This document shows positions 11,413-57,647 of a DNA stretch of 64,000 nt, one piece after another. The stretch is taken from the IMG/VR virus record IMGVR_UViG_3300011116_001229; one strand, given 5' to 3'. Positions within the stretch are counted from its first letter, which is position 1. Each line of letters starts with the position of its first letter. This DNA is from a virus (lineage: Duplodnaviria; Caudoviricetes). Under the pieces are notes generated by a model. It made no database searches. It saw only the letters and a list, made by a program, of their open reading frames with translations, and was not told where the DNA came from. Position numbers and translations under genes: made by a program.

Positions 11413-12081
11413 ATGTGGGCTATGCCTCCGCAACCTAATAAAGTTGAGTTGATTGGTTTTTATGGATCTGATGAAATTCATGCTCTTTCAGCGTGGACTT
11501 CAACTTCAAGAGATCTTACGGAAGAAAAGAGAAGTCGAATTCCTAATCTTTTAAAAATGTTGGCCGAAAATGGACATGAAACTCCTTTTGAAAAATCTTC
11601 GCTACATTTTCTTGTAACGACAGAGATAGCTACACACGCACAACTCCTTAAACATCGTATTGGTGTCTCTATCAACGCTGAGTCTGCTCGTTATAAAGAG
11701 CTCAAGGATGATAAGTACTATGTTCCCGTTGATTGGCCCGCAGCTGAAAAAGAGCTCTACATCGAGCACATGGAATCTTCTCTTCAAAAGTACCATGAGA
11801 CGCTTGAACGCTTAGTTCAAGGAGGAATGTCAAGAAAGCGCGCAAAGGAGTCTGCTAGACTATATCTTCCCTATGGCAATCAGATCACTGCTGACATTAT
11901 GTTTAATTTTCGAAGCTTCGTCCACTTTATTCGCCTACGATATTCAGAACACGCGCAATTAGAGATCAGAGATATTGCAAGTTGCATGTTAAACCTAGTA
12001 GAATCTACTAAAGTCTTTCCGGCAACTTTAGAGGCATTTGGACTCACGGAAAGCGGCGTATTAAGAAGACCATTTTCATGA
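11413..12081 (+). CDS. thyX: Flavin-dependent thymidylate synthase (true start possibly 11422)
   Basis: GHETPFE, KHRIGVSINAESARY (ThyX motif), ARLYLP, HAQLEIR. Confidence 0.92.
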   Translation: MWAMPPQPNKVELIGFYGSDEIHALSAWTSTSRDLTEEKRSRIPNLLKMLAENGHETPFEKSSLHFLVTTEIATHAQLLKHRIGVSINAESARYKELKDDKYYVPVDWPAAEKELYIEHMESSLQKYHETLERLVQGGMSRKRAKESARLYLPYGNQITADIMFNFRSFVHFIRLRYSEHAQLEIRDIASCMLNLVESTKVFPATLEAFGLTESGVLRRPFS

Positions 12082-12665
12082 GTAAAATTATCGTTTTTGA
12101 AGGTGCAGATCGCTGTGGAAAAGCTACACAGAGCGCTATTCTTAAAGATCATATTCAATCTTTGGGGAACACTGCGGCAATTGTAGAAGTACCAATCCGC
12201 TCTGCTATCACATATAGAGCTATTTATTGGATGCTTAAGAATGGACTCGCAAAAAATCTTCCAAAAACATTCCAGGTCATTCAATTCCTCAATAGAAAGT
12301 TTTTTCAGTGGTTTACTCTCCCACGCCTAGAGAAAGTTTATGACTACATTATCTTAGATAGATGGAGTTTATCAACTGTTATTTACGGCGGCGCTGAAGG
12401 TGTTTCGCAGTGTTTTACTGTTGGTCTCTCAAAATTTCTGCGTGATCCTGATCACACTGTTGTCCTAATTGGCAAATCGTTTCCTCACGATGCGGAGGAT
12501 GTATATGAAGCTGATCAAGCTCTTCAAGAAAAAGTCAGAGAAGGTTATGCCCAATGGGTAGTGAATAACTACGACAAGGCTAGTCTTCATGACTGTCGGC
12601 AAGAAAAGCATGTTCTAGCAAAAAAGATACAACTAGTTTTATCATCTAAGAAAATCATCCCTTGA
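12078..12665 (+). CDS. tmk: Thymidylate (dTMP) kinase
   Basis: FEGADRCGKATQ P-loop, LDRW motif; coupled to thyX by an ATGA overlap. Confidence 0.85.
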   Translation: MSKIIVFEGADRCGKATQSAILKDHIQSLGNTAAIVEVPIRSAITYRAIYWMLKNGLAKNLPKTFQVIQFLNRKFFQWFTLPRLEKVYDYIILDRWSLSTVIYGGAEGVSQCFTVGLSKFLRDPDHTVVLIGKSFPHDAEDVYEADQALQEKVREGYAQWVVNNYDKASLHDCRQEKHVLAKKIQLVLSSKKIIP

Positions 12666-21602: not shown

Positions 21603-22016
21603 TTGTACTTTACTTCCAATGATTCTAAAATACGATTAAGGAAAAGACACATGGATAAACTTGACGAGATGTATAACCAGCAGCGAGACTTCAATTATCT
21701 CTTGAGAGATGAAAGAGGTTATCCTGACTTTCCGCTCGATCTAAAAGAAAAGAAGAATCAACAGATTCTTAAGGGGCTTGCGCATGAGTGCATGCATGAA
21801 CTCTTCGAGGCTAATCATCTACTAAAGAATAGCAAGAATCATCGAGTTACCGAAGTAAAAGAATTTGACAGAGAGTCTTACAAAGAAGAACTTGTTGATG
21901 CGCTACATTACTTCTTTGGAATTGTAATCTATAGCGGCATTTCTGCAGAAGAGCTACATGAAGCTTTCATGAAGAAGGGTGCTGTTAACGTGCAACGAGT
22001 GAAGACCGGTTATTGA
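21603..22016 (+). CDS. All-alpha NTP pyrophosphatase (dimeric dUTPase/MazG-like)
   Basis: ECMHELFEA and KEELVDALHY acidic motifs. Confidence 0.75.
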   Translation: MYFTSNDSKIRLRKRHMDKLDEMYNQQRDFNYLLRDERGYPDFPLDLKEKKNQQILKGLAHECMHELFEANHLLKNSKNHRVTEVKEFDRESYKEELVDALHYFFGIVIYSGISAEELHEAFMKKGAVNVQRVKTGY

Positions 22017-22960
22017 CTATGACAAAGTGGGACGACTTGCATAATGCTCTAAAAGCTCAGAAATCCTTTTCCGATTATTTTTATGACACTAATCAACTAA
22101 CAAATGAGCAGAAAATTGAAGAACTAAAGACTTTGAGCTTAGCGTTACACTCTGAGATTTCAGAGATGTGCAATGCTGTCAATTACAAAGAGCATCGCAG
22201 AGAATCTCGCGAAACAGACTTGCAGAAGATTCTGTACAAGTCTGCTGATGCTTATCGTTATATTCTTGCTATAGCAAACCTATGGGGAATAACTGCAGAT
22301 AAATTAACATCTGCCTTAGAACAAAAGGACCACTATCTGCACTATAGACATCAACTTCGTGACAAGAGATGGTGCGGAGAACCGATTGTGCTCTTTGATA
22401 TTGACGACGTACTTGCTGAGTTCAGATATGAGTTCTGCAGATTTGTTACAGATCAGACTGGAATCTTCATGGATCCTAACAGCTCAGAGTACTATAACAC
22501 TGTTAAGTTCAAAGAACACGGTCTTAACAGCGAGTATTTCTTTAAAAAATTTATTGACGATCATGGATTTTTGAGATTGGACTTGAACAAGCGTTACTAC
22601 GATTTGTTGACGCGTCTAAAAGCTCGAGGACACTGGGTGCAAATAGTCACTGCACGAGATGCAAGCAATCTCACGTGTTTCTATGACACTTACGCATGGC
22701 TGCATCTCAACAACATTCCAGCAGATGATGTAGTTTTCACGCCCGAGAAATTTGCCTGGTTGGCAGGCCAAGATTTCTATAAGACAGCTCGATTATTTGC
22801 TGTTGATGATTCAGCAAAGCATGCATCTGAATACGCTAAGCATGGCGTGACTTGCGTTGTTCCAAAAAAATCTTACAATGTTGAAGTAAAAAATGTCAAG
22901 GGTGTCATCTACATCGAAGACAGCGACGATATTTTTGCTAAAATTAACACTATCCTTTAG
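22013..22960 (+). CDS. MazG-like NTP pyrophosphatase fused to HAD 5'-nucleotidase
   Basis: N-terminal ALHSEISE...ADAYRYI; C-terminal FDIDDVL (HAD motif I), IVTAR, K, VDDS. Confidence 0.75.
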   Translation: MTMTKWDDLHNALKAQKSFSDYFYDTNQLTNEQKIEELKTLSLALHSEISEMCNAVNYKEHRRESRETDLQKILYKSADAYRYILAIANLWGITADKLTSALEQKDHYLHYRHQLRDKRWCGEPIVLFDIDDVLAEFRYEFCRFVTDQTGIFMDPNSSEYYNTVKFKEHGLNSEYFFKKFIDDHGFLRLDLNKRYYDLLTRLKARGHWVQIVTARDASNLTCFYDTYAWLHLNNIPADDVVFTPEKFAWLAGQDFYKTARLFAVDDSAKHASEYAKHGVTCVVPKKSYNVEVKNVKGVIYIEDSDDIFAKINTIL

Positions 22961-23030
22961 CGCGAGAACGTGTTATACTTTACAGACTGCTCGACTAATA
23001 ATTGCAGCTTGACTCAAACTTGGAGAAATT

Positions 23031-24011
23031 ATGCCCATTAATAAAGACCTACAGCCGATTGAACTACCCATGGAATTAAAGTTCGGACGACCTGTTCGCA
23101 CCAAGTTCCATAATAATATTGATGCACTAAAGATTGAGCTCGTCGACCATCCTGCGCGTCAACAAGCATGGAACGTCGCTTGGCATTATGTTAAGGCAAC
23201 TTGGGCAGATAGACCTGACATCTCGCCTGAGTCTGTATCGCATCGAGAACTTTCTAAAAACCTGGAAGATGTTTTCGGAGGCCGCACTCTGCCAGCGCCC
23301 ATGGAATGTCTTGGCTTCACATTTAGATTAAGTGGTATGTCTTTTCAAGAGGTGACTCATATTATCAGACATCGTGCAGGAACTTTTGCTGCACAATGCA
23401 CAGGCGATCGTGACCTCCGAGATGATGATGCAGTAATTCCAGAACCCGTAGAGAATTCACCTGAGTTCTTAGCGCGCTGGAAGAAGATTGTGGAAGATTC
23501 CAAGCAACTCTATGCTGATATGACTGATTCAAAGGTTGTGTCCATGATGGACGCACGTTTGATTCTACCAAAGTGCATGACGTCTTTCTACTACATGCGA
23601 CTTCCTCTCAAGGAGCTAATTGGCTTCATCTATCAACGTCAGGATAGGCAGATTCAGACGTCAGCTGATAATATTCTGGCAGCACGCATGGCAGTTGAGG
23701 TGGCTAAGGTCATTCCTGAGTTCACTACGCTAGTTGATTTCAACAAGCCTGACATGCACTACATCAAGACCTTCCGCGTGAAGGAAGGTGATAAGTTCGT
23801 GTCTCGCGGAACGAACCTCTATTGGCCGGAACCCAAGAACGACAAGTTTGAGTTCCACCCAGATGACACTATCTACCAGGCTCGCCGTGAAGAGCTCAAC
23901 GGCACGCATGGTGATGGCCCACAGCGAAAGTTTGTAGCTGCCTGGGATTCTGCAGTGTCCGAGTTTGAGAGTATTAAAAAGCAACACAATGATTGGAAGG
24001 AAGGTAAATAA
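23031..24011 (+). CDS. Divergent ThyX-family flavoprotein
   Basis: FTFRLSG, HIIRHR, DARLILP; the motif after RHR departs from canonical ThyX. Confidence 0.75.
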   Translation: MPINKDLQPIELPMELKFGRPVRTKFHNNIDALKIELVDHPARQQAWNVAWHYVKATWADRPDISPESVSHRELSKNLEDVFGGRTLPAPMECLGFTFRLSGMSFQEVTHIIRHRAGTFAAQCTGDRDLRDDDAVIPEPVENSPEFLARWKKIVEDSKQLYADMTDSKVVSMMDARLILPKCMTSFYYMRLPLKELIGFIYQRQDRQIQTSADNILAARMAVEVAKVIPEFTTLVDFNKPDMHYIKTFRVKEGDKFVSRGTNLYWPEPKNDKFEFHPDDTIYQARREELNGTHGDGPQRKFVAAWDSAVSEFESIKKQHNDWKEGK

Positions 24012-24053
24012 AGTAATTAAGTACTTTTGTACCTGACGGAGATAAGTATAGCC

Positions 24054-24233
24054 ATGAAACAATCGAAGATCTCGGTCGATGAAGAGACCCATAAATTGCT
24101 GAAGATATACTGTGCTCAGCACGGTCTGATTATGAGTCAGTTCACCGCCGAGATCATTCGAGAGAGGATTGGCAATGAAAGAGAAGATCTGCGCACAATG
24201 CGAAAAGAAATTTGTGCCAAAGAATCCATTTAG
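24054..24233 (+). CDS. Small ribbon-helix-helix-like protein
   Basis: SKISVDEETHKLLKIYC..HGLIMSQF. Confidence 0.5.
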   Translation: MKQSKISVDEETHKLLKIYCAQHGLIMSQFTAEIIRERIGNEREDLRTMRKEICAKESI

Positions 24234-25068
24234 TAATAAGTCTGGTTTCTTCTTTTGCTCGAAAGAGTGCACTTATCTTGCTCAGAAGAAGGGCGGTGTC
24301 ACATATGAGCTCCGTCGAAAGAGGTCACTAGAGAAGCACGGCACCGACTTTCCAATGTCTTGCCCTGAGATAAAGAATAAGCGCAGCAACAACAACATAA
24401 AAAAGTACGGTGTTGCCAGCACGTTTGAACTTGATTCAGTCAAAGAGAAGTCAAAAAAGACTTCACGTGAGAAATATGGGGTTGATGTTTACTCACAAAC
24501 AACAGAATTCAAGTCCAAGATCGAAGAGACAAATCTAAAGAGATTCGGACATAAGTCTCCGATAGAAAATCCCAACATTCTAGAACGACGACGGCAGACA
24601 ATGATCGACAGATGGGGAGGTCCATCAACTTTCGAATCACCTGTTCTACGAGCTCGCGCTGAAGATACCTGTATTGAAAAGTTCGGAGTTCATAATATTG
24701 TCTTATCGCCGACGTTTATCTCTTCTTCCATGGATAAGAAACTGCTCAAATCACATGGAAAAACTTGGCAGCAGTACATCGATGACCTACCTGAATTTCA
24801 GGATTATCGAAGAAAAGTCGATCACTTTACACGCATGCAGCCGATCGAACAGCTAGCCAATCATGATAAACGTGGTGAATATCATCTCGATCACAAGTTT
24901 TCAGTCGCTGAAGGGTTTAGACAAGGTCTACCACCCGAGGTGATAGGTCACATTGTGAATCTGGAATTCATACCGGCTGCAGAAAATCTTCGAAAACAGT
25001 CAAGTTGTTCAATTGACAAAGACGCATTACTATCAGAATACTCAACTAGAAAGGTAAATCAAAGATGA
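24175..25068 (+). mobile_element. Free-standing homing-endonuclease-like gene (Zn finger, KYGV-type repeats, C-terminal HNH-like domain)
   Basis: CAQC/CSKEC; about six (E/K)K(Y/F/H)G repeats; YHLDHKFS...NL....ENLRK. Confidence 0.7.
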
Positions 25069-25520
25069 ATCGAAAAAAGATGTATCTCGCAAGCGGATGG
25101 TTCAACCCTACACAGGAAGCAGAGCTCACGAGGCTCGAGCAGATTATGGAAGCACGTAAGGACTGGATCGATATGGCTTCACCACGTAGGATCTTCATCT
25201 GTCCACCTAATGCATCTCGTGAAGTACAAGATGCAACCTATCAGGGTAATCTTAAACACATCCGCGAGGCTGACTTCCTCGTTGTGAACACCCGCGACAA
25301 GGATCTCGGTACGATCATGGAATGTGGTTATGCTACAGCCTTTGACAAGCATATCATCTACTTCTGTGCAGGACTTCCCCCCGGAGCAAAATTTAATCTT
25401 ATGCTTTCAAGATCGGGTGCATTCGTGGCTACTTCGTTCGAACAACTCGAAGACTACCTCGATCGGTGCAAGTCTGCAGGCGAGATGCTTTACGAACCGT
25501 ACGACAAGGAAATTGAGTGA
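25065..25520 (+). CDS. Nucleoside 2-deoxyribosyltransferase / dNMP N-glycosidase family
   Basis: MYLASGWF, ADFLVV, DLGTIMECGYA (catalytic Glu motif). Confidence 0.85.
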   Translation: MNRKKMYLASGWFNPTQEAELTRLEQIMEARKDWIDMASPRRIFICPPNASREVQDATYQGNLKHIREADFLVVNTRDKDLGTIMECGYATAFDKHIIYFCAGLPPGAKFNLMLSRSGAFVATSFEQLEDYLDRCKSAGEMLYEPYDKEIE

Positions 25521-27878: not shown

Positions 27879-28772
27879 ATGGAGAGTAAATGTGAAGTTT
27901 GCGGAATTAGCATAGAATCAAAACCAAGACTACGTACTTGTTCAAAAAAATGCGGTTACGTGTTGAGAAGTCGTACTAGAAATATAAAACATGAGCCTGT
28001 TGAAAAGATATGTCTCGACTGCGAGTGTAATTTTCAAGATACTTCAAAAAAGAAGTTAGTCGTTAGATGCAAACCATGCATAAACAATTCCATGGTTGCT
28101 ACACGTTACGCAAGAGGAAGCTATGAGCGCTCAGAAGAGCAGAACGAGAAATTGTCTATTACGCTTAAGACAAAGTACGAATCAGGATGGAACCCTAACA
28201 CTGAAGAGCATCGAGAAAAATTATCCGAGGGAATGAAGGCTCGCTGGCAAGATGGTTCAATGAGAAAGAAGTCGGTTGCAACAACGCTTGAAAAGTATGG
28301 AGTTGAGCACTGGGCGCAGTCTGAAGAAGGAAAGACAGTGCTATCACAGAGGTCAAGAGGCAGAAAATTTTCTGATGAAACTCGTAAAAATATGAGTCAA
28401 GGCGCTGCAAGGCGCATTAGAGAGAATAATAATCATTATGAACGAGGTAATGGAGGTTTTAGAGAAGACCTCGGACACTATGTACGGAGTAACTGGGAAG
28501 CTAATTTTGCTAGAATATTAAAAATTCAAGGAAAGTCTTACGAATACGAACCTAAGACATTTCAAATTGCTGAGGATAAAACGTATACACCCGATTTTCT
28601 TGTCGATGGTATTTTCTACGAAGTTAAAGGCTATTGGACCGAAAAATCGAAACTTAAATTAGAATCATTTGTAAAAATATATCCCGAAATAGAATTGCAA
28701 ATCATCGACGGCACAAAGTACAATGAGCTTAGAGAAGCTTACCAAGATCTAATTCACTGGGAAGGCAAATAA
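27879..28772 (+). mobile_element. Homing-endonuclease-like gene (Zn fingers, NUMOD3-like segment, T7 endonuclease I-like PD-(D/E)XK domain)
   Basis: CEVCG/CSKKC, CLDC/CKPC, KYGV, GRKFSDETR, RSNWE...YEYEP...YTPDF...EVKGYW. Confidence 0.75.
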
Positions 28773-28775
28773 TAA

Positions 28776-31700
28776 ATGAACAGCACAAAGGAGAAGAGCT
28801 ACTTGAAGCTTGAGTCCGTGCGACCTCCTACTCGGTTTGTGGGGTTTCACGCGCACTCAGGCTTCTCGTAAAGTTACGACATTTGACGGTTTGGGTTACC
28901 CTGCAGATCACATTGCCTTTGTCACCTCTGAGTCACAAGGCATGGATGCCTGGGCACTGACAGATCACGGCAATGGCAACGGACTTGCACACGCACATTC
29001 TGCTGCCAAGAAGATTCAGAAGAAAGGTGTGAAGTATCGACAGCTCTACGGCGTGGAGTTCTACTTCGTTCCTTCACTTTCGCAGTGGCGTATCGATTAC
29101 GAGGCCCACAAGCAATCAGTCAAGGACGCGAAGTCTGCAGCTGAGGCTGAGAAGAAAGCAAAGATTCGAACTGACATCGACGCTGACGAGGCAGCAGAGG
29201 AAGAGGAGGCCGGTGGCCACGTCGTGGAGGATGAGGCAGAGACGAAGGCCGACGACTACAAGGAGAAGCCTGACTGGCAGCGTCGTTACCACCTCGTGGC
29301 AGTGGCGCAGTCAGCTGAGGGGCTCGCGAACATCAACCGTCTCGTCAAGGCATCATTTAAAGACGGATTCTACCGTTATCCACGCATCGACTTCGACCTC
29401 CTCAGAAAGTGGGGCAAAGGGATCGTGTGGTCGAGCGCCTGCCTCGGCGGAACAATGGCGGGTACAATTCTACGAGGCGTAGCACATAATAGAACTTCTG
29501 AGCAAATTATTGCTGATCTTGAAGTTCTCACAGGTCAGTTCGTCGAAGCAGTCGGCCAAGAGAACTTCTTCCTCGAACTGCAATTCAATAAGCTCGAGAA
29601 ACAACACACCGTAAACAAGTACCTCATCGACCTGTCTCGAAAGACCGGTGTGAAGCTGCTGGCCACATGCGACTCTCACTATCCAGATCCCTCCAAGTGG
29701 CAGGCCCGTGAGCTCTACAAGAAGCTGGGCTGGATGGGCACGAAGCTAGACGAGCAAGCACTACCGAAGTTCGAGGACCTGAAGTGCGAGCTGTATCCCA
29801 AGAACGCTACCCAGATGTGGGACGAGTTCAAGAAGTCCTACGAACAGTACGACTTCTACAAGGGTTCCGAGGAGGAAGTTCGTGACGCGATCGAGCGGAC
29901 TCACGACGTCGCTTGGCAGCATTGCGAGGACACTTGGGTCGATGTGAAACCAAAGCTGCCCAAGGTCGACACACCAGAAAAAACAGCATTCCAGCAGCTC
30001 ACTGAGCTTGTTAAAGAAGGTCTTACCCGCGAAGGTCTTGCTGATAAGCCTGAGTATGTCGATCGAGCTAAATATGAGCTCGGAGACATCAAATATCTGA
30101 ATTGTGCTTCTTACTTCATTACGATGTATAAAGTGTTCAATCTTGCGAAGGAGAAGACGCTCTTTGGAAGCGGCCGCGGGAGTGGTGCGGGATCGCTCGT
30201 CAACTTCCTGTTAGGCATCACGCAGATCGATCCGATACCATACGGTTTGCTTTGGAGCAGATTTTTAGGACGACACCGAGTGAGCTTTCCGGATATCGAT
30301 ACAGACGCAGGTGACAGGGATGTCCTTATCGATGCGGCACGAACTCTGTTCGGCGATGACGCCGTGATCCCGGTGTCCAACTTCAACACCCTGAAGCTCA
30401 AGTCCCTCGTCAAGGACATCGCCAAGATCTACGGCGTGCCCTTCGAGGAGGTGAACGAGATGACCGGCCCTCTCCAGGACGAGGTGATGCCGCTGGCTCG
30501 AGACGAGGACCAGGAGAAGTCGGTCTTCGTGCTGAAGCATGAGGACTGCATGAAGTACTCGCCGAAGTACACGGCCTTCATGGAGAAGTATCCTGACGTT
30601 GCTGCACACGTCGAGACACTGTTCATGCAGAACAGGTCCATCGGAAGGCATGCAGGAGGCGTACTCTTAGCAGATCCTGAAGATCTTGCTGCAAACATGC
30701 CTATCATTGGCGTCAGAGGCGAGCTGCAGACACCGTGGACAGAGGGTATGAACTTCCGCAATCTGGAGGATAACGGCTTCTTGAAGTTTGACTTCCTAGG
30801 TCTCACGCTTCTCAAAGATGTCGAGAACTGCATTAGACGCATTCTCATCAAGAATGGCAATCTTGATCCTACCTTCCTGGACATTAGAGGCTTCTTCGAC
30901 AAGCATCTAAACTGTCGATACGTGAAGCAGGACGATCCTGCTGTGTGGAAGCATGTCTACCAGGACGGCTCGTTTGTGTCAGTCTTCCAGATGACTGCAG
31001 AGGGTGCTCGGAAGTTCTGCAAGGCAGTTAAACCGACGAAGATCGAAGACCTCACAGCTATTACAGCGATCTACCGCCCTGGGCCTCTCAAAGCAAACGT
31101 GCACAACCTCTTTGTCGAAGCTAGAAAGCTTGACAAGATCAATTACCCACACCCAATCATCGAGCAAGTCCTTGGACCTACGAAAAATTTCGTTGTGTAT
31201 CAGGAACAATTTATGTTGTTAGCAGAAAAACTAGGTGGCTTTACACCTGGTGAAGCTGATCAGCTGCGCAAGACGCTAGTTAAGAAGTCGCTTGACACGC
31301 TGGACAAAAAGTCATCAGAGAAGGAGCTTGCTAAGCAGAAGTTTATTGAGGGTGCTCAGCGACTTCACGGAGTTCCTCCAGAAGTGACCGAGCCTCTTTG
31401 GCAAACAATTGACAACATGAGCGTCTATTGTTTCAATAAATCCCACAGTTTAGCATATGCTATCGATTCCTACTATGCAGCATGGCTTCATACACACTAC
31501 GAGAAAGAGTGGCTGGCAACTGCACTTCAATCAGCTTCCAGCAACCCAAAAGAACTTGCGAAGACGATCTCCGAGATCAAGGCGTTAGGCTTCAAGTTCT
31601 CGAAGCACGACATCAACTACTCGGGCAAGGAGTGGCAGTTCTCTGAGGAGGCCGATGCTTTCGTGCCGCCTCTCGGTTCAGTGAAGGGAATTGGATCTGC

Positions 31701-32409
31701 AGCAGTTGAAGAGATCATGGCGAACAGGCCCTACAAGGATCTAGCTACTATGCTCTATGACGACGCAGGTGAGTGGCGACACAGCAAGGTGAACAAGACA
31801 GCTCTGTCAGCTCTTTGCAAGATTGATGCGCTTTCTTCTTTGGAAGATTTTAATCTAGGTAGAGTTAATAATCATAAGCAACTTCTAATGGCTTTGACAG
31901 ATGACAAGAATTACGAGATGCTTCGACGTGGTCTCTACGGCCTGACTGCATCGCAGCTGAAGAAGAAAGCTAAGGCCGGCGAAAAGATCGAAGCTTTCTT
32001 GGATCTAATGCTTACATCGCTAACAAATGTCGAAGATTGGTCTCGAGAAGAAAAGATTGAGATGTGTCAAGATTTAACACAATCTGTGGACACTGACCTG
32101 CTGTTTCCTCCCGCAGTCATGGAAAAGATTGCAGAAAAAAATGTTCCAAAACTTCATGATGTACCAGCAGGGGCTGAGGGAATAGGATGGTTCTGCGTTG
32201 CTGAAATTCAAATGAAGAAAACTAAGAATGGTAAAGTTTTCTATCGAATTAAAGCAACAGACGATGAACATCGAACAGCTTGGGTTAGAGCATGGGGAAC
32301 TCCAAAGGAAGAAATTCGTCCATACACACTTTGGGTTGCTCAAGTTCAAAATGATCCAAACTGGGGATTCTCAACGTCTGTGTATAAGATGCGTGAACTA
32401 GTTGGGTGA
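28776..32409 (+). CDS. dnaE: DNA polymerase III alpha (DnaE), interrupted: segment 28776-28868, 10-nt gap 28869-28878, segment 28879-32409
   Basis: First segment encodes FVGFHAHSGFS then TAA. The +1 frame resumes TFDG and continues TDHGN, GRGSGAGS, FPDIDTD, HAGG, KFDFLGL, YRPGP, YQEQ, FNKSH, KGIG and an OB domain. Confidence 0.93.
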
Positions 32410-32416
32410 GACTACA

Positions 32417-33328
32417 ATGAAGACACAACTTCCTATCAGGTATATAATCGTCGAAGGACCGGACCTTGCAGGTAAATCTACGTTTATTCAGCAACTGCAT
32501 AAGGTGACAGGTTTTAAATACAATATTCAGGATAGATCATGTCTTTCTATGTTGTGCTACGCGAGACAGTATAGTCGGGATATTGATCTACAGCGTCAAT
32601 TCTTGCATGAAGAGTTGTCTGATCTTAATAACTTTTTTATTGTGCTCCTACCATCAGAAGAAGTTTTGCTAGATCGACTTGCGTATAGAGGCGATGAGTT
32701 TCAGAATTCATCATCCGTTGTGACTCTTAGAAATCTATTTGTTGAAGAGACTGAAAGTGTTGAGCACAAACCGAATGTTCTCGTGATTAGAAATATTGCT
32801 TCAGCAGAACAGCTAGCTGAGTATGTCAGTCAGCGTTTGCGCTCATATGAAAGTCCTACAATTGAAAAAGCTGGTGCGATGACTTCACGCTGGATTACAA
32901 GTGATCAACATCCTGAAATGCAACTAAAGCTTAAGCTGCACATCAATCCAGCACATGATGATGCTGAAATACTCAAACATCCGCATGAAGGTGAATATTA
33001 TTCTGGAATATTGGAAAGATGTTGCTCAATTATTCAAGATGAATTGGATGGAAAGAATCCGTACAACAAACCACAAGATCTCACGTCAAGACGGTTCTTC
33101 TATTCAAGTGATTCTTGCATCTCATCTATTCACTTTTTGCCAAGAGACGGCAGTTTAAAAGTTCTTTGCACGCTCCGCAGTACTGACGTTAACAAGAATG
33201 GATCGATTGACACGAGATTTTTAGCTCACTTGTCAGCTTTCGTTGCTAGGAAATTTAAATGGCCAACATCTAACATTGCGCTTTTCATCAACTTTAATAG
33301 TGCACATGTAAGAAAAGATTTAGAGTGA
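32417..33328 (+). CDS. NMP kinase fused to a truncated thymidylate-synthase-fold domain
   Basis: EGPDLAGKST and QDRS in the kinase part; SCISSIHF...LRSTDV..N..D...NSAHV in the TS-like part. Confidence 0.7.
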   Translation: MKTQLPIRYIIVEGPDLAGKSTFIQQLHKVTGFKYNIQDRSCLSMLCYARQYSRDIDLQRQFLHEELSDLNNFFIVLLPSEEVLLDRLAYRGDEFQNSSSVVTLRNLFVEETESVEHKPNVLVIRNIASAEQLAEYVSQRLRSYESPTIEKAGAMTSRWITSDQHPEMQLKLKLHINPAHDDAEILKHPHEGEYYSGILERCCSIIQDELDGKNPYNKPQDLTSRRFFYSSDSCISSIHFLPRDGSLKVLCTLRSTDVNKNGSIDTRFLAHLSAFVARKFKWPTSNIALFINFNSAHVRKDLE

Positions 33329-33344
33329 CATTATAATTGCTGAC

Positions 33345-34340
33345 ATGATTAAGATACTGATAACTGGCGCTGCAGGTTTGCTGGGAAATAATCTATCACG
33401 ACATTTTATTAGCAAGGGATTCAGGGTTGTCGGAGTAGATGACTTTAGCGGTGGATTTAAAGATTTAGTGCATGGAAATGTGCATCTGTATGAATGTAAT
33501 CTGACGGACGATAAAAAAGTTTCTCAGATCTTTATGACAGAAAAACCCGACTATGTGTTTCACTTTGCAGCATATGCAGCTGTTGGTTTGAGTCCATTTA
33601 TACGCAGGCACAACTATATGAATAATGTTGTTGCTTCTGCAAATGTTATTAATGCGTGTGTCAATTATGGAGTTCAAAAGCTAATATTTGCAAGCTCAAT
33701 GGACGTATACGGCACGCAAGATCCACCGTTTGTTGAGTCCCAGCGACCTATGCCAGAAGATCCGTATGGCATTGCAAAATTTACAATAGAGCAGGACATA
33801 CATGCTGCAGGTCGCCTTTTTGGCCTGAGATACAGCATCGTAAGGCCCCACAATGTCTTTGGTGTCTACCAGAATATTTGGGACAAATATAGGAATGTAA
33901 TAGGCATCTGGATTAGGCAGAGTTTATCTGGACAACCCCTGACAATCTATGGTGAAGGCAAGCAGATGCGCTCTTTCTCCGACATTGAATTTTACATGGA
34001 GCCTTTTGAGAAACTATTGGAGCTAGGTGATGGTGAGATTTACAATATTGGTGCTGATAGCTACGTCTCTATTTCCGAAGCTGCAAGTAGATTTCAGTCT
34101 GTTGCAAAGCATAATGGTCTTGACACTTCGGTTATTCACCTCGAACCTCGAGATGAAGTAATTTTTGCTTATTGCGATCATTCAAAAGCCAAGAGTCAGC
34201 TAGGTTTTAAAGACGGCACACATTTTGAAAATCTAGTTAACAAAATGATTATATGGGCGAAAAGTCAACCACAAAGACCTGTTAAGTTAATGGATTATGA
34301 AATAGAAAAGGGAATGTACTCTTATTGGAAGAAGAGTTAA
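33345..34340 (+). CDS. NAD-dependent NDP-sugar epimerase/dehydratase
   Basis: ITGAAGLLG, HFAA, YGIAK, RPHNVFG, RSFSDI. Confidence 0.9.
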   Translation: MIKILITGAAGLLGNNLSRHFISKGFRVVGVDDFSGGFKDLVHGNVHLYECNLTDDKKVSQIFMTEKPDYVFHFAAYAAVGLSPFIRRHNYMNNVVASANVINACVNYGVQKLIFASSMDVYGTQDPPFVESQRPMPEDPYGIAKFTIEQDIHAAGRLFGLRYSIVRPHNVFGVYQNIWDKYRNVIGIWIRQSLSGQPLTIYGEGKQMRSFSDIEFYMEPFEKLLELGDGEIYNIGADSYVSISEAASRFQSVAKHNGLDTSVIHLEPRDEVIFAYCDHSKAKSQLGFKDGTHFENLVNKMIIWAKSQPQRPVKLMDYEIEKGMYSYWKKS

Positions 34341-34366: not shown

Positions 34367-35320
34367 ATGATTAAGGCGCTTATTACTGGGGGAGCTGGTT
34401 TTATTGGAAGCAATTTATGTAATACACTACATAAAATGGGATGGGATATTGACATTGTTGACAATATGTCTAATGGTCATGTTGAATTTTTGCATGTTGA
34501 TCTTCGATCAGAAAAACTTTGGGTTGAAGATTTTGCTGCTTATGAAGTTCTTGAAAAGATTGGTAGCAAAGAATATGATTACGTCTTTCATTTGGCTGCA
34601 AATCCAAGAGTAACTTACTCTATTGAAAATCCTGTTGAAACACATGAAACTAACGTTTTGAAAACGTTAATGCTGCTAGACGCATGTAAAGGCAATATTA
34701 AGCGCTTAGTTTTTGCTGCATCTTCATCTACTTATGGAAATGCCGATGTACTCCCAACGACCGAGGATTTGCCAGACAGCCCAAAATCACCGTATGCTTT
34801 GCAGAAAGCAATCGTTGAAAAATACTTAAAACTTTATAGCGAGCTCTACGGTTTAGATTCTGCCTGTCTTAGGTTCTTTAATGTTTTTGGACCGAACCAG
34901 CTTGGTGATTCCCCCTACTCTACGGCAATTTGTGCATGGTTGACAGCAATTAAAAGAGATAAATCAATGAGATCAGACGGCGATGGATCTCAATCACGCG
35001 ACATGTGTTACGTTGATAATGTTGTTGATTGCTTGATTAAAGCTGCAATTGCTGAGAAAAATTTAAACGCTGAAGTTTTAAACGTTGGTGTTGGTGAAAG
35101 CGTTTCTAACGCCGAGATTCTTAAATATCTTAAAAAGAAGTATCCACAAGCAGTCTCACATGACGCTCCGTGGAGACCAGGCGATGTCATGCATACTAAG
35201 TCTGATATCTCAAAGGCAAAGAGGCTTATCGGATATGAACCAAAAGTTGATGTCTGGCAGGGCTTAGACAAAACTATCGTATGGTTTGAGGAAAACTGGT
35301 CCTGGCTTAAGAATATGTGA
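34367..35320 (+). CDS. NAD-dependent NDP-sugar epimerase/dehydratase
   Basis: ITGGAGFIG, HLAA, SSSTYG, YALQK, RFFNVFGP, RDMCYV. Confidence 0.92.
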   Translation: MIKALITGGAGFIGSNLCNTLHKMGWDIDIVDNMSNGHVEFLHVDLRSEKLWVEDFAAYEVLEKIGSKEYDYVFHLAANPRVTYSIENPVETHETNVLKTLMLLDACKGNIKRLVFAASSSTYGNADVLPTTEDLPDSPKSPYALQKAIVEKYLKLYSELYGLDSACLRFFNVFGPNQLGDSPYSTAICAWLTAIKRDKSMRSDGDGSQSRDMCYVDNVVDCLIKAAIAEKNLNAEVLNVGVGESVSNAEILKYLKKKYPQAVSHDAPWRPGDVMHTKSDISKAKRLIGYEPKVDVWQGLDKTIVWFEENWSWLKNM

Positions 35321-35329
35321 GGATTGATC

Positions 35330-35899
35330 ATGACTATTGTACCTGAGTTTATTGTTTACACCGGCCCGATGTTTTCTTCAAAAACATCAAGTCTTCTATC
35401 TTCACTTGAAAGATACAAATATCAGCACAAGAGAATTGTGCTCTATAAGCCTGAAATTGACGACAGATATAGCATTTCCGAAGTTGTCACACATGGCGGT
35501 CTTAAGATGCCTGCGTTTTGTGTTAAGACGGGCGCTGATATAATTGAGCACTTAGCAACTCTTAATGAAAATCCACACGTAATCGCAGTAGATGAGGCAT
35601 TCATGATTGCGGGTGTTGCAGATACACTTATTTGGCTGTATAGAAATGGTTACACTGTTGTTGTATCATCTTTGGACTTGTCAGCTGCAGGCACTGTTTT
35701 TCATGAGATTGAAAAGATGATGATCTGGGCGACTAGAGTTGAAAAATGCACCGCTGTTTGTACTGTCTGCGGTAGAGATGCTCATTACACTCATAAAAAG
35801 CAGACTGGGGGAGAAGAGATTGAAGTTGGTGGATCGGAACTTTACGAGCCAAGATGTTTCTTACACCATCTGCATATTGATAAGAGGCTAACGGACTGA
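35330..35899 (+). CDS. tdk: Thymidine kinase
   Basis: GPMFSSKT, VDEAF, C-terminal CTVC...YEPRC..H lasso/zinc site. Confidence 0.9.
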   Translation: MTIVPEFIVYTGPMFSSKTSSLLSSLERYKYQHKRIVLYKPEIDDRYSISEVVTHGGLKMPAFCVKTGADIIEHLATLNENPHVIAVDEAFMIAGVADTLIWLYRNGYTVVVSSLDLSAAGTVFHEIEKMMIWATRVEKCTAVCTVCGRDAHYTHKKQTGGEEIEVGGSELYEPRCFLHHLHIDKRLTD

Positions 35900-35900
35900 C

Positions 35901-36326
35901 ATGGACAGACCCGCATGGCCTGAAACGTGGATGAAGATTGCTTGGAATATCTCAGACAGATCTTATGATCCTCGACTAAAAGTTGGCGCTATAATTGTTT
36001 CAGACGATAATACTCGATTGCTTTCACTAGGCTATAACGGAAATTATCGAGGCGGTCCAAATGAGCCTGAGAGTGATGTGCCCGGACAAAGCGGAATGAT
36101 TCACGCAGAAGTAAATGCATTAATTAAATGTGATTATAATTTCAATAGAAAAAAGATCATGTACCTAACACATTCGCCGTGTGTATCATGCGCCAAGCTT
36201 ATTGTAAATGCCGACATTGCCAGTGTAATTTATGACGTGGAGTACAGGGATCTTTTGGGCTTGCAGATACTTACAAATTCAGGCATTCATGTAAATAGAC
36301 TGGGTGACTTGATAATTAGATCTTGA
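35901..36326 (+). CDS. dCMP deaminase
   Basis: VGA, GYNG, HAEVNAL, SPCVSCAK. Confidence 0.92.
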   Translation: MDRPAWPETWMKIAWNISDRSYDPRLKVGAIIVSDDNTRLLSLGYNGNYRGGPNEPESDVPGQSGMIHAEVNALIKCDYNFNRKKIMYLTHSPCVSCAKLIVNADIASVIYDVEYRDLLGLQILTNSGIHVNRLGDLIIRS

Positions 36327-36337
36327 GAATCTGTGCA

Positions 36338-36631
36338 ATGAAGAAAAAAGATAATGACTTTATCAGACTCATGCGTGAAGAGTGGAATGCAAAAATGTCC
36401 GCGCTTCAAGAAGAAGTTGAGCTTATGTTTAATACCAAGGTCGATAATGATAAAAAGACTGTCATTAGCCCCGGCTTAAAGATAAGAAGCAAAGATGAGC
36501 AAATTCTTTATAAAGTAGCCGCCGTGAGCATTAGAGGAGTCGATTTAAGACCACCAGATGCACCTGAAGATGGCTCTAAAGACTTCTTTGTTGACAAGGA
36601 CACCCTGGAGAAAAACTATGAGCTCGATTAA
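36338..36631 (+). CDS. Hypothetical protein
   Basis: ORF preceded by TAATTA at 36313. Confidence 0.6.
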   Translation: MKKKDNDFIRLMREEWNAKMSALQEEVELMFNTKVDNDKKTVISPGLKIRSKDEQILYKVAAVSIRGVDLRPPDAPEDGSKDFFVDKDTLEKNYELD

Positions 36632-37349
36632 GAAAAGCGATGAAATTCTTGGCATTGATGTCAATAGCATTATAAAAAATACTTTTAAAGAACAGTCAAA
36701 GACTTCTTCTGGCGGTCTAAAACAGGCGCTTGATGAAGCTTTTGTGCATGAGCCAAAACAGTTTAAGCAAGTTACTGAATTCTTGTCTGAGAAGGCAAAA
36801 TCTGCACATATTGAACTCTATAAGGGCTACATTGAGTCTTTTAATAAGGTGTCAGCAAAACTAGATTCAGTCAATAGATCTGAAGCAAATTCTAGACACG
36901 CCGATTACAGATCATTAAAACTTGACGAAGCGTATAACTTGAATGGTACATGGCTACACGAACTTCACTTTGCTAATGGTTTTGATCCACATTCAGAAAT
37001 AGTAATGGATTCAATGTCTTATCTTCGACTGCAGAGAGACTTTGGAACTTTTGAAGATTGGCAGAGAGATTTCATTGCCGCCGGCATGAGCGCAGGTAAT
37101 GGCTGGGTTGTTACAGGTTTTAATATGTTCTTAAAGAAGTATGTTAATACAATTGTTAGCCATCACAGTGGCGATATTCAAATGGGTCTCTATCCAGTAA
37201 TTGTGGTTGACATGTGGGAACATGCTTATTTTAGAGACTATCTTACAGACAAGAAGTCTTATTTGATTGCACAGATGAAAGAGCTGAATTGGACAGTCAT
37301 TGAGGAGCGCTTCAAGAAGGCTGAAGCCATAGCTCAGGTGTTAAAATGA
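36618..37349 (+). CDS. Fe/Mn superoxide dismutase family
   Basis: AHIELY, LHELHF, FGTFEDW..DF, DMWEHAY. Confidence 0.88.
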   Translation: MSSIKKSDEILGIDVNSIIKNTFKEQSKTSSGGLKQALDEAFVHEPKQFKQVTEFLSEKAKSAHIELYKGYIESFNKVSAKLDSVNRSEANSRHADYRSLKLDEAYNLNGTWLHELHFANGFDPHSEIVMDSMSYLRLQRDFGTFEDWQRDFIAAGMSAGNGWVVTGFNMFLKKYVNTIVSHHSGDIQMGLYPVIVVDMWEHAYFRDYLTDKKSYLIAQMKELNWTVIEERFKKAEAIAQVLK

Positions 37350-54783: not shown

Positions 54784-55596
54784 TTATTTAGAAGAGTTTT
54801 CTTGAGGTTGTTGTTCTAACAACCTTCGTTTTTCTTCACGATTTTTAGCTTGAGTCTTGCGTCTTTTTTCAATCGTTTCTTGAGAAGGAGAAGGTCTGGG
54901 CTTTCCCTTTTGGGATTCTGACATTCTTTTTTTCGTTTCTTCTGAACGTTTTCTTCCTTTACTAACGGCAGATAACTTTTGCCTCGTTTCTTCTGAAACT
55001 GGCTTTTTATTCTCTGCTATCTTTTTCTTTTGTTCTTCCGTAAGCTTCCACTTTCTTCTGGCTTCAGAAAGCTTTCTTCGATGTTCTTCTGATTTAGGAC
55101 CGGTATTTTTCCCCTTCATAGACTCAGACATTTTGCGAAGTGTTTCTTCAGAATGAGGTGGAGGTTTTTTGCCTTTGTTGACTTCCCGAAGCTTTTGTTT
55201 ATGTTCTTCAGAAAGATGTTTGCCACGGAATGAAGAACCTCGTATATAACGTTGTTCATCTGAAAGATTTGAATTTGCTTCTTTTATCTTTTGTATTGTT
55301 TCAGTTGAAAACTCAAAATGATCGCCGCCAGACGTTAGGTTATAACCTCGTTTAAAAGAATCGAATCTTTCTATCCATACACGTTCTCGTTCATTTGTAA
55401 CTTCATCTTCACACTCTTCTATTATTTCGAATGTAAAGTTTTCTTTACCGTATTTTCTAATAGCAGCGTGAAATTTATATCCTGTTCCTTTTAACGCTTC
55501 ACAAAGATGACCCCTTACTCTTTTGTTAAAATCTTTTGTTTGTCCTACATAACATTTACCATCTAACAAATTTTTTGCCAAATAAATAAACCGCAT
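54784..55596 (-). mobile_element. GIY-YIG homing endonuclease with NUMOD3 repeats
   Basis: FIY...N...K.YVGQT, R...H, E; repeated (H/V)SEET/H..K.S units. Confidence 0.88.
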
Positions 55597-57615: not shown

Positions 57616-57647
57616 AGTATTTATTGTACTTATTGTTAGGTGTTTGA

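What the first reader, a model, noticed from the sequence alone, without database searches (positions are those of the whole stretch)
32417..33328. NMP kinase fused to a minimal thymidylate-synthase fold, directly before two sugar epimerases
Seen: an N-terminal P-loop kinase and a C-terminal domain of about 120 aa with TS hallmarks (Cys in SCISSIHF, RSxD, AH) but lacking most of a normal ThyA. Known: TS-fold paralogs next to NMP kinases and sugar-nucleotide genes occur in T-even phages with sugar-modified cytosines. Inference: this could be the group-transfer step coupled to a kinase selective for the modified dNMP.
Basis: partly seen in the sequence, partly recalled or inferred. Interest (0 to 1): 0.6.

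Follow-up and report, generated by a model that had tools for sequence, protein, structure and literature searches.

The report
Phage kinase fused to mini thymidylate synthase
An uncultured marine jumbo phage encodes, right after its DNA polymerase gene, one protein that joins a nucleotide kinase to a stripped-down thymidylate-synthase-type enzyme with a cytosine-reading residue, so it probably makes and activates an altered C nucleotide for the phage's DNA, by chemistry not yet known.

Summary
Observation confirmed. Window 32417-33328 (+) is a 303-aa ORF starting 7 nt after dnaE. Residues 1-146 are a YorR/thymidylate-kinase-type P-loop kinase (Z 14.5). Residues 147-303 are a 157-residue core of the thymidylate synthase (TS) fold: all 7 top hits among 48,161 PDB chains are TS-family (Z 8.6-10.6), the next is 5.5.

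The catalytic Cys, the Arg-Arg pair, Arg-Ser, the His and an Asp at the E. coli N177 (cytosine-specifying) position are conserved in about 50 homologues down to 32% identity. The folate-binding helices and C-terminal tail of normal TS are missing.

Two NDP-sugar SDR epimerases follow directly. That adjacency is not universal, and no glycosyltransferase is in the window.

Best reading: a bifunctional enzyme that modifies C5 of dCMP and phosphorylates the product. It resembles the separate kinase plus TS-homologue gene pairs of RB69/DLP3 5-hydroxycytosine clusters. The product and cofactor are unknown. The window protein lacks the D169N signature of 5-hydroxy-dCMP synthases, though half the family has it.

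Stand-alone mini-TS proteins exist. One sits beside a kinase, a ThyX-like paralogue and a family-B polymerase.

The family is unannotated and unreported in the literature searched. This scan noted the same family earlier on other DNA.

The parts
32417..33328 (+). Whole ORF: 303-aa kinase::mini-TS fusion (stop included)
   Evidence: ORF list. 280 homologues, those listed nearly all about 300 aa. 51 IMG/VR loci, nearly all matching almost full length. AF2 pLDDT 92.9, pTM 0.89.
32417..32854 (+). N-terminal YorR/thymidylate-kinase-like dNMP kinase domain (res 1-146). P-loop res 13-21 lies at 32453-32479.
   Evidence: Profile against PDB sequences: YorR 2axp/3kb2, E 7e-10. VIA-align 3kb2 Z 14.5; TMPKs Z about 12. 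phrog_761 'thymidylate kinase' 5e-11. D16, G19, K20, D39, R40, S41, R87, R91, G92, D93 are invariant in 51 sequences.
32855..33325 (+). C-terminal 157-residue minimal thymidylate-synthase-fold domain (res 147-303)
   Evidence: Model m81adb473f3c3, pLDDT 94. The top 7 of 48,161 chains are all TS family, Z 8.6-10.6. Foldseek top hit is 9iqu AfhB, 2.8e-7. hhalign with T4 gp42 E 7e-8 and with RB69 gp48 E 1.6e-5.
33116..33118 (+). Codon of C234, the predicted catalytic nucleophile (aligned with T4 dCH C148 / E. coli ThyA C146)
   Evidence: Aligned by hmmsearch and hhalign. Invariant in 51/51 fused and 16/16 stand-alone sequences.
33209..33211 (+). Codon of D265, at the base-specificity position (E. 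coli N177 / T4 dCH D179)
   Evidence: Aligned with T4 D179 and the AfhB Asp. Asp in 50/50 sequences with a residue at this column. Lee et al. 2026 cite Asp at this position as conferring dCMP preference.
28810..32409 (+). dnaE-type replicative polymerase directly upstream (7-nt gap)
   Evidence: DnaE is directly upstream in 30 of 55 loci; elsewhere an IMPDH-like gene intervenes.
33345..34340 (+). SDR NDP-sugar epimerase 1 (GalE-like)
   Evidence: PF01370 9e-49. Best PDB sequence hit is 4zrm UDP-glucose 4-epimerase, 3.5e-43.
34367..35320 (+). SDR NDP-sugar epimerase 2 (WbpP/WbgU/TviC-like UDP-hexose 4-epimerase type)
   Evidence: PF01370 5e-50. NCBIfam TviC 2e-49, below the cut-off. PDB sequences WbpP and WbgU about 1e-50.
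35324..36326 (+). Thymidine kinase (35324-35899) and dCMP deaminase (35901-36326), syntenic partners downstream
   Evidence: PF00265 5e-38 and PF00383 3e-19. Conserved order in nearly all loci.
21603..25520 (+). Upstream nucleotide module: all-alpha NTP pyrophosphohydrolase (21603-22016), NT5C-like nucleotidase (22013-22960), divergent ThyX paralogue (23031-24011), homing-endonuclease-like DUF7487 gene (24169-25068), nucleoside deoxyribosyltransferase-like gene (25065-25520)
   Evidence: The same set of functions flanks a stand-alone mini-TS in L058. The ThyX paralogue is present in 5 of 5 related long contigs.
11413..12665 (+). Canonical ThyX (11413-12081) plus canonical thymidylate kinase (12078-12665). 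dTMP/dTDP synthesis is already covered elsewhere in the window.
   Evidence: PF02511 3e-37 and PF02223 3e-8.

Best explanation
The gene encodes a bifunctional enzyme of pre-replicative pyrimidine modification.

The C-terminal mini-TS domain binds a deoxypyrimidine 5'-monophosphate, most likely dCMP because the specificity position carries Asp265. It would attack C6 with Cys234 in the usual TS manner, so that C5 becomes nucleophilic and receives a substituent. The fused TMPK/YorR-type kinase domain then converts the modified dNMP to the diphosphate. Cellular NDP kinase and the phage DnaE polymerase, encoded immediately upstream, would put it into phage DNA.

Shown here:
- the two folds;
- conservation of the kinase motifs and of the TS catalytic and phosphate-binding residues;
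- loss of the folate-binding parts;
- the fusion and its synteny.

Inferred: substrate, catalysis and channelling.

Unknown: the electrophile or cofactor, and so the product. Candidates are 5-hydroxymethyl-, 5-hydroxy-, 5-methyl- or a new 5-substituted dCMP. The window protein has Ser231/Asp257/Asp265 at the E. coli L143/D169/N177 positions. That is closer to the T4 hydroxymethylase pattern at position 169 than to the D169N pattern of flavin-dependent 5-hydroxy-dCMP synthases.
For: - Folds: kinase Z 14.5 to YorR. Mini-TS Z 10.6/10.4/9.0/8.6 to 9iqc, ThyA, MilA and T4 dCH, with a gap to 5.5.
- Sequence homology restricted to cytosine-specific phage TS homologues: T4 dCH 7.6e-4 and AfhB 0.015 by hmmsearch; hhalign 7e-8 and 1.6e-5.
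- Residue equivalences from these alignments: R225/R226 = T4 R123/R124; C234 = C148; R254/S255 = R168/S169; D257 = D171; D265 = D179; H297 = H216.
- These residues, plus E191 and Y194 and the kinase residues K20, D16, R40, R87 and R91, are invariant or nearly so in 51 fused proteins down to 32% identity. All of them except D257 (variable, see the signature classes), Y194 and the kinase residues are also conserved in 16 stand-alone mini-TS proteins.
- The motif E191-G-E-Y-Y resembles T4 E60-L-E-W-Y around the catalytic Glu (motif-level inference).
- The window already has canonical ThyX plus TMPK, so this pair is an additional pathway.
- Precedent: a YorR/TMPK-like kinase lies next to the TS homologue in the RB69, DLP3 and RL38JI 5-hydroxycytosine clusters. 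There, co-expressing the TS homologue with each phage's T4-gp1-type dNMP kinase (gp159/gp169, a different gene from the cluster kinase) puts the modified base into DNA (PMC13326640).
- Independent Rosetta-stone support: in L058, a family-B-polymerase phage, a stand-alone 166-aa mini-TS lies in one operon with a TMPK-like kinase, an Ndt-like protein, an HD 5'-nucleotidase and a ThyX-like paralogue, next to the polymerase gene.
Against: - No biochemical data exist for any family member.
- The domain lacks everything that holds the folate in normal TS. About 60 residues between helix B and the Arg-Arg strand are replaced by a roughly 13-residue loop, and the C-terminal roughly 55 residues are absent. 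Catalysis would need another cofactor site or a partner protein.
- It falls below the Pfam and NCBIfam thresholds.
- The window protein lacks the D169N and L143D/E signatures of proven 5-hydroxy-dCMP synthases.
- An equivalent of phosphate-binding R21 of ThyA was not identified.
- Synteny is shared by a single phage lineage with collinear genomes, so adjacency alone is weak evidence.
- No dedicated DNA glycosyltransferase was found in the window.
Confidence: 0.6

Rival explanations
1. Sugar-coupled reading, close to the first reader's. The domain is a flavin/O2-dependent 5-hydroxy-dCMP synthase like AfhB/RB69 gp48. The 5-OH is later glycosylated using NDP-sugars made by the adjacent epimerases and the UDP-sugar pyrophosphorylase at 52869-53924.
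For: - The top structural hits are AfhB 9iqu/9iqc.
- 24 of 51 family members carry Asn at the D169 position and 24 carry Asp at the L143 position; 17 carry the full D/N/D signature.
- Three SDR epimerases and a UDPGP are in the window.
- Related complete or near-complete genomes carry clusters of GT-B (PF00534) and GT-A (PF00535) glycosyltransferases.
Against: - The window protein itself has Asp257 and Ser231, not the D169N/L143E signature.
- The glycosyltransferase clusters of relatives lie more than 100 kb from the fusion and could serve polysaccharide or protein glycosylation.
- No glycosyltransferase is in the 64-kb window.
- The epimerase is absent next to the fusion in many loci, and from the L058 module.
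- Flavin binding cannot be judged from sequence.
Confidence: 0.15
2. The TS-like domain is a catalytically dead remnant that serves only as a nucleotide-binding, regulatory or dimerisation module for the kinase.
For: The cofactor-binding half of TS is lost. No Pfam-level match. The kinase domain looks fully competent on its own.
Against: The nucleophilic Cys, Glu191, His297, the phosphate-binding Arg/Ser set and the specificity Asp are invariant across proteins that share only about 30% identity, and also in stand-alone 160-186-aa proteins that have no kinase to regulate. Variation at the cofactor-facing position 257 (D/N/E) falls into clade-specific classes, which looks like functional tuning.
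Confidence: 0.1
3. It is a compact thymidylate synthase plus thymidylate kinase acting on dUMP/dTMP, a back-up dTTP pathway.
For: Databases call the family 'thymidylate kinase'. Thymidine kinase and dCMP deaminase are neighbours. There is a weak TIGR03283 archaeal TS hit.
Against: Asp, not Asn, sits at the N177 position in all members. The folate site is absent. The window already has canonical ThyX plus TMPK as an adjacent pair. Sequence similarity is to dCMP-specific enzymes only.
Confidence: 0.05

Closest known systems
Flavin/O2-dependent 5-hydroxy-dCMP synthases (AfhB of phage HY126, PDB 9iqu/9iqc; RB69 gp48; DLP3 gp80) together with the YorR/TMPK-like 'nucleotide kinase' of the same clusters (RB69p045, DLP3_078, RL38J1_214)
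   Same: TS fold, catalytic Cys, Arg-Arg, Arg-Ser, and Asp at the N177 position. Best structural match. Kinase plus TS-homologue pairing next to the DNA polymerase gene. Sugar-nucleotide genes nearby (PMC13326640). The kinases share the GPDxxGK(S/T)T P-loop.
   Different: Here the two are one polypeptide. The TS part is about 157 aa against 217-238 aa. The window protein has Asp, not Asn, at the diagnostic D169 position and Ser at L143. No adjacent glycosyltransferases. A DnaE rather than a family-B polymerase. Only the P-loop aligns with RB69p045.
T4 dCMP hydroxymethylase gp42 (PDB 1b5d/1b49) with dNMP kinase gp1
   Same: Best sequence-profile match (E 7.6e-4; hhalign 94.6%). C148, R123/124, R168/S169, D171, D179 and H216 all have conserved counterparts. 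An E-x-E-aromatic-Y motif surrounds the catalytic Glu. Pathway logic: modify dCMP, then phosphorylate.
   Different: gp42 is 246 aa with a folate site, and its kinase is a separate gene of another kinase family (gp1). The mini-TS lacks the folate-binding helices and the C-terminal segment. Ser rather than Asp at the position of gp42 D145.
MilA (CMP hydroxymethylase) with MilB (Ndt-fold N-glycosidase) of mildiomycin biosynthesis
   Same: TS-fold enzyme acting on a cytosine nucleotide (Z 9.0). It co-occurs with a nucleoside-deoxyribosyltransferase-fold protein, as in the window (25065-25520) and in L058.
   Different: MilA is full-size, folate-dependent, acts on the ribonucleotide, and belongs to antibiotic biosynthesis. 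The MilB parallel is recalled from memory and was not tested here.
Viral 437-aa 'thymidylate kinase/thymidylate synthase domain-containing' proteins (ESM Atlas cluster, 62 members)
   Same: Apparently the same domain combination, with a full-length PF00303 domain (feature score 0.90, a lead only).
   Different: About 130 residues longer and recognised by Pfam. The sequences could not be retrieved, so order, signatures and kinship were not tested.

Membership tests
Thymidylate synthase / dCMP hydroxymethylase superfamily (ThyA fold, PF00303) | ThyA alpha/beta fold core (central sheet, helix J, helix B) | tested here: met
   VIA-align wide: the 7 best of 48,161 chains are all TS family, Z 8.6-10.6, with 135-143 of 157 residues aligned; the next is Z 5.5. 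Foldseek probability 1.00.
Thymidylate synthase / dCMP hydroxymethylase superfamily (ThyA fold, PF00303) | Sequence match to the family model above the curated threshold | tested here: not met
   No PF00303 hit at E <= 0.1. TIGR03283 scores 17.2 bits against a cut-off of 174.55. Homology is seen only by profile methods.
Thymidylate synthase / dCMP hydroxymethylase superfamily (ThyA fold, PF00303) | Catalytic Cys (E. coli C146) and the nucleotide-phosphate ligands R126'/R127', R166, S167 | tested here: met
   C234, R225/R226 and R254/S255 align to T4 C148, R123/R124 and R168/S169. They are invariant, or 50 of 51.
Thymidylate synthase / dCMP hydroxymethylase superfamily (ThyA fold, PF00303) | Folate-binding elements (W80/W83 helices, C-terminal tail) | tested here: not met
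   The domain is 157 aa. The segment between the long helix and the Arg-Arg strand is a roughly 13-residue loop, and the chain ends 6 residues after H297.
Thymidylate synthase / dCMP hydroxymethylase superfamily (ThyA fold, PF00303) | Obligate homodimer with shared active sites | not testable with these tools
   No multimer prediction is available. Retention of the Arg-Arg pair, which in ThyA comes from the other subunit, is suggestive only.
5-hydroxy-dCMP synthase (AfhB / RB69 gp48 type) | Asp at the E. coli N177 position (dCMP specificity) | tested here: met
   D265 aligns with the Asp of AfhB and RB69 gp48. Asp in 50 of 50.
5-hydroxy-dCMP synthase (AfhB / RB69 gp48 type) | Asn at the E. coli D169 position (diagnostic according to PMC13326640) | tested here: not met
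   The window has D257 (RSTD, against RSQN in AfhB/gp48). Across the family: N 24, D 13, E 13 of 51.
5-hydroxy-dCMP synthase (AfhB / RB69 gp48 type) | Acidic residue at the E. coli L143 position | tested here: not met
   The window has S231, with D232 next to it. Across the family: D 24, S 15, Q 9.
5-hydroxy-dCMP synthase (AfhB / RB69 gp48 type) | Bound flavin and O2-dependent hydroxylation | not testable with these tools
   Needs purification and assay. The He et al. paper on AfhB is not in the library.
T4-type dCMP hydroxymethylase (gp42) | C148, D179, D171 and H216 equivalents | tested here: met
   hhalign alignment.
T4-type dCMP hydroxymethylase (gp42) | Catalytic Glu60 equivalent | tested here: inconclusive
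   Invariant E191 lies in E-G-E-Y-Y, against T4 E60-L-E-W-Y. This is motif resemblance only. hhalign does not align the N-terminal half, and no residue-level structural alignment is available.
Thymidylate kinase / YorR-like dNMP kinase | P-loop NMP-kinase fold with a TMPK-type P-loop Asp, a DR(Y/S) motif and lid arginines | tested here: met
   Z 14.5 to YorR and about 12 to TMPKs. D16, K20, D39-R40-S41, R87 and R91 are invariant. The profile hits YorR at 7e-10.
Thymidylate kinase / YorR-like dNMP kinase | Pfam PF02223 above the gathering score | tested here: not met
   16.6 bits against a cut-off of 27.

The most novel reading that the evidence does not exclude
The mini-TS is a cofactor-less 'pyrimidine-activating' half-enzyme that supplies only the Cys nucleophile and the dCMP pocket. 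It would work in complex with the divergent ThyX-like flavoprotein that always accompanies it. That paralogue lies 8 kb upstream here, is present in 5 of 5 related genomes, and is translationally coupled to a stand-alone mini-TS in the unrelated phage L058. Together they would install a so far undescribed C5 substituent on dCMP, and the fused kinase would channel the product towards the polymerase. Abundant aquatic jumbo phages would then carry an unrecognised cytosine modification made by a hybrid ThyA-core/ThyX system.
Probability: 0.2. Interest if true: 0.85.

Novelty: new variant of a known kind. Interest (0 to 1): 0.62.

Why it matters
TS-family enzymes are the entry point of every known pre-replicative pyrimidine hypermodification in phages (5hmC, 5hmU, 5mC and, since 2025-26, 5hoC). 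This family is a TS core of about 150 residues that has lost the cofactor-binding half, keeps every catalytic residue, and is welded to the kinase that normally sits beside it.

It is widespread. The domain profile finds 425 clusters at 50% identity, and the fused form lies on viral contigs of up to 284 kb from marine and other metagenomes (the earlier scan note reports it in a lake phage). Public databases call it only 'thymidylate kinase' or 'hypothetical'.

If active, it defines the minimal catalytic unit of the TS fold. It would also point to unknown DNA chemistry in abundant uncultured phages, with consequences for restriction and CRISPR evasion, for sequencing bias in viromes, and for enzymatic synthesis of modified dNTPs.

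Tried and rejected
- tblastn of the protein, its C-domain and a stand-alone mini-TS against 50,697 phage records found no homologue of the family in a sequenced phage record. There were only weak hits to ordinary TS homologues.
- The DnaE is at most about 29% identical to any isolate, so no host or taxon could be assigned.
- No whole genome is held for the window.
One metagenome locus (L058) was obtained.
- hhalign does not align the N-terminal half of the mini-TS to T4 gp42 or RB69 gp48. Foldseek and VIA-align give no residue-level alignment and model coordinates are not exposed. Equivalents of E. coli R21, E58 and Y94, the inter-domain geometry and dimerisation could therefore not be established.
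- RB69p045 aligns to the kinase domain only over the P-loop.
- A region search with the kinase domain returned only the same roughly 300-aa fusions among the 120 best hits listed.
- The AfhB paper (He et al.) is not in the library.
- Literature searches for a kinase-TS fusion in phages found nothing.
- Sugar transfer by the TS domain itself was considered and rejected as without precedent or supporting evidence.
Full report
**1. The observation**

Window 32417-33328 (+) is an ORF of 303 codons. Its ATG lies 7 nt after the TGA of a 1199-aa dnaE-type polymerase gene, and its stop lies 16 nt before the next gene. Standard libraries barely see it:
- Pfam gives only sub-threshold thymidylate-kinase and P-loop hits.
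- PHROGs gives phrog_761 'thymidylate kinase' (5e-11).
- NCBIfam gives a 17-bit match of residues 232-298 to the archaeal thymidylate synthase model.

The next two genes are extended-SDR NDP-sugar epimerases (PF01370, about 1e-49; nearest solved relatives are UDP-glucose 4-epimerase 4zrm and the WbpP/WbgU type).

**2. The family**

A word-indexed search found 280 homologues. Those listed are nearly all about 300 aa, come from metagenomes, lie on contigs of up to 284 kb, and are named 'thymidylate kinase' or 'hypothetical' at best. IMG/VR holds 51 loci in which nearly all matches span almost the whole fusion, down to 32% identity.

Across 51 distinct sequences these residues are invariant or nearly so:
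- Kinase: D16, G19, K20, D39-R40-S41, R87, R91-G92-D93.
- TS-like part: E191, Y194, R225, R226 (50 of 51), C234, H239, R243, R254, S255, D265, H297.

**3. The folds**

The full-length AF2 model is confident (pLDDT 92.9, pTM 0.89).

Residues 8-149 superpose on the SPbeta prophage protein YorR (3kb2: Z 14.5, rmsd 2.7 A, 139 residues) and on thymidylate and deoxynucleoside kinases (Z about 12). The family profile also finds YorR by sequence (7e-10).

The C-terminal 157 residues were modelled alone from 44 sequences (pLDDT 94) and compared with 48,161 representative chains without a Foldseek pre-filter. The seven best are all thymidylate-synthase-family enzymes, and the eighth drops to Z 5.5:
- the flavin-dependent dCMP monooxygenase 9iqc (Z 10.6, 138 aligned);
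- four ThyA entries (Z 9.3-10.4);
- MilA (Z 9.0);
- T4 dCMP hydroxymethylase (Z 8.6).

Foldseek ranks the phage HY126 dCMP hydroxylase AfhB first.

By sequence profile the only solved relatives are T4 dCMP hydroxymethylase (7.6e-4) and AfhB (0.015). hhalign gives 94.6% probability (E 7e-8) to T4 gp42 and 79% (E 1.6e-5) to RB69 gp48.

**4. What is kept and what is lost**

The alignments equate R225/R226 with T4 R123/R124 (E. coli R126/R127), C234 with C148 (C146), R254/S255 with R168/S169 (R166/S167), D257 with D171 (D169), D265 with D179 (N177), and H297 with H216 (H207).

The invariant E191 sits in E-G-E-Y-Y, which resembles T4 E60-L-E-W-Y around the catalytic glutamate. This is a motif-level inference only.

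Secondary structure is helix A, a strand, a long helix, then directly the Arg-Arg strand, the Cys strand, its hairpin partner, helix J and the last strand. The roughly 60 residues that in ThyA lie between helix B and R126 are reduced to a loop of about 13 residues. In ThyA that segment holds W80, W83, Y94 and the helices that clamp the folate. The chain also ends six residues after H297, so the C-terminal segment that closes over the folate is missing.

The domain is thus a TS core with an intact nucleotide and nucleophile site and no canonical cofactor site.

**5. Specificity signatures**

Lee et al. 2026 (PMC13326640) summarise three points:
- Asp at the N177 position gives dCMP preference.
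- An acidic residue at L143 goes with non-methyl products.
- Asn at D169 is diagnostic of the flavin/O2-dependent 5-hydroxy-dCMP synthases they validated.

In this family the N177 position is Asp in every sequence. The other two positions fall into classes (L143/D169 positions): D/N in 17 sequences, S/D in 10 (the window's clade), Q/E in 7, D/E in 5, and others. The window protein therefore fails the 5-hydroxy-dCMP synthase signature, while many relatives meet it.

From memory, not tested here: D169 is the side chain that hydrogen-bonds the pterin in ThyA. Clade-specific variation at that position would suggest that some cofactor still docks there and that the family may span more than one chemistry.

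**6. Context**

The window is part of an uncultured jumbo phage:
- It carries gp32-like SSB, RecA, DnaB, an RNR with an intein, DnaE, homing endonucleases and GroEL.
- A related contig of 284 kb is rated complete.
- No isolate has a DnaE more than about 29% identical.

It has a canonical ThyX-TMPK pair at 11413-12665, so the fusion is an extra pathway.

Around dnaE lie an all-alpha NTP pyrophosphohydrolase, an NT5C-like nucleotidase, a divergent ThyX paralogue, an Ndt-like protein, a third SDR, the fusion, two SDRs, thymidine kinase and dCMP deaminase.

The order Epi-DnaE-fusion-(Epi)-TK-dCD-SOD-like is kept across the 51 loci. These genomes are collinear, so this is weak evidence of coupling. 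An epimerase is the immediate downstream gene in 28 of 50 informative loci, lies a few kb further downstream in 10, and TK follows directly in 9.

None of the 50 window ORFs scanned against Pfam, including all those of about 250 aa or more, matched a glycosyltransferase family, and six of the larger unknown ORFs also had no PHROG match. Related genomes do carry GT-B/GT-A clusters, but more than 100 kb away.

**7. Independent support from a different phage**

A profile of the mini-TS domain searched against 1.84 billion representatives gave 425 hits. Most are the fusion, but there are also complete 160-186-aa stand-alone proteins with the same invariant residues.

One of them (L058) lies in a phage with a family-B polymerase, in this gene order: TMPK-like kinase, Ndt-like protein, YfbR-type HD 5'-nucleotidase, ThyX-like paralogue (39% identical to the window's), mini-TS (4-bp overlap with the ThyX-like gene), polymerase.

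So the kinase, the ThyX-like paralogue, the Ndt-like protein and a nucleotidase travel with the mini-TS in an unrelated replication background, without sugar genes. The ThyX paralogue was also found in 5 of 5 long related contigs.

The ESM Atlas lists a viral cluster of 437-aa proteins with PF00303 and PF02223, possibly the full-size version of the same fusion (a lead only).

**8. Interpretation**

The best-supported reading is a bifunctional enzyme. The mini-TS activates C5 of dCMP through Cys234 and adds a substituent. The fused kinase makes the diphosphate. The polymerase encoded just upstream uses the triphosphate.

This mirrors T4 gp42 plus gp1, and the RB69/DLP3 pairs of a TS homologue with a YorR-like kinase. 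In those systems, co-expressing the TS homologue with the phages' gp1-type dNMP kinase suffices to put the new base into DNA.

The electrophile and product are open. The link to the epimerases is possible but not required by the data.

The rivals (dead domain; thymidylate back-up) are disfavoured by the conservation pattern, the Asp at the specificity site, and the presence of canonical ThyX/TMPK.

**9. Novelty**

No paper in the library describes this fusion or a TS core of this size, and databases do not annotate the TS part.

Earlier notes of this scan describe the same family on other genomes and reached a similar reading. I used them only as leads and re-derived the points above independently.

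Noticed in passing
window 23031-24011 (+); L058 6398-7276: Divergent ThyX paralogue of 326 aa, beside a canonical ThyX at 11413-12081. It keeps RHR, but the ThyX motif region reads RHRAGTFAAQCTGD, replacing the serine-rich motif of the canonical copy (HRIGVSINAESARY), and it has N- and C-terminal extensions. It accompanies the mini-TS in 5 of 5 related genomes and is translationally coupled to a stand-alone mini-TS in an unrelated phage.
   Followed up: partly
window 21603-22960 and 25065-25520 (+): An all-alpha NTP pyrophosphohydrolase (phrog_12184), an NT5C-like nucleotidase with a roughly 120-aa N-terminal extension, and a nucleoside-deoxyribosyltransferase-like protein. These could deplete canonical nucleotides. 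The same functions flank the mini-TS in L058.
   Followed up: partly
window 7452-10955 (+): Ribonucleotide reductase large subunit interrupted by an intein with an HNH endonuclease.
   Followed up: no
window 24169-25068, 27879-28772, 54784-55596 (-), 61135-61911: Four homing-endonuclease-like genes (DUF7487, Endo I-like, and two GIY-YIG/NUMOD3). In several related loci dnaE appears in 2-4 pieces with an Endo I-like gene between them (L007, L026, L045, L049), which suggests mobile insertions in the polymerase gene.
   Followed up: no
window 55681-60118 (-): A PrkA, DUF444 (YeaH-like), SpoVR gene triad on the opposite strand. This is a bacterial stress/sporulation-associated set and is unusual in a phage.
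   Followed up: no
window 3966-4970 (+): Actin-like protein matching the Pfam Volactin family (1e-68), between the RecA and 5'-3' exonuclease genes.
   Followed up: no
window 52869-53924 (+); related contigs G001, G002, G005: A UDP-sugar pyrophosphorylase (PF01704) in the window. Relatives carry clusters of 5-6 GT-B/GT-A glycosyltransferases more than 100 kb from the fusion. The target of this sugar metabolism (DNA, virion or host envelope) is unknown.
   Followed up: partly
window 36558-37349 (+): A protein with only the C-terminal Fe/Mn superoxide dismutase domain clearly recognisable. It is conserved in synteny after dCMP deaminase in nearly all related loci.
   Followed up: no
BFVD entry A0A3G1L3Q7 (Synechococcus phage S-CBWM1, 151 aa): An uncharacterised protein of a cultured cyanophage resembles the mini-TS model (TM 0.50 by target, 130 columns). 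It may be an isolate carrying a stand-alone mini-TS. It was not confirmed by sequence.
   Followed up: no
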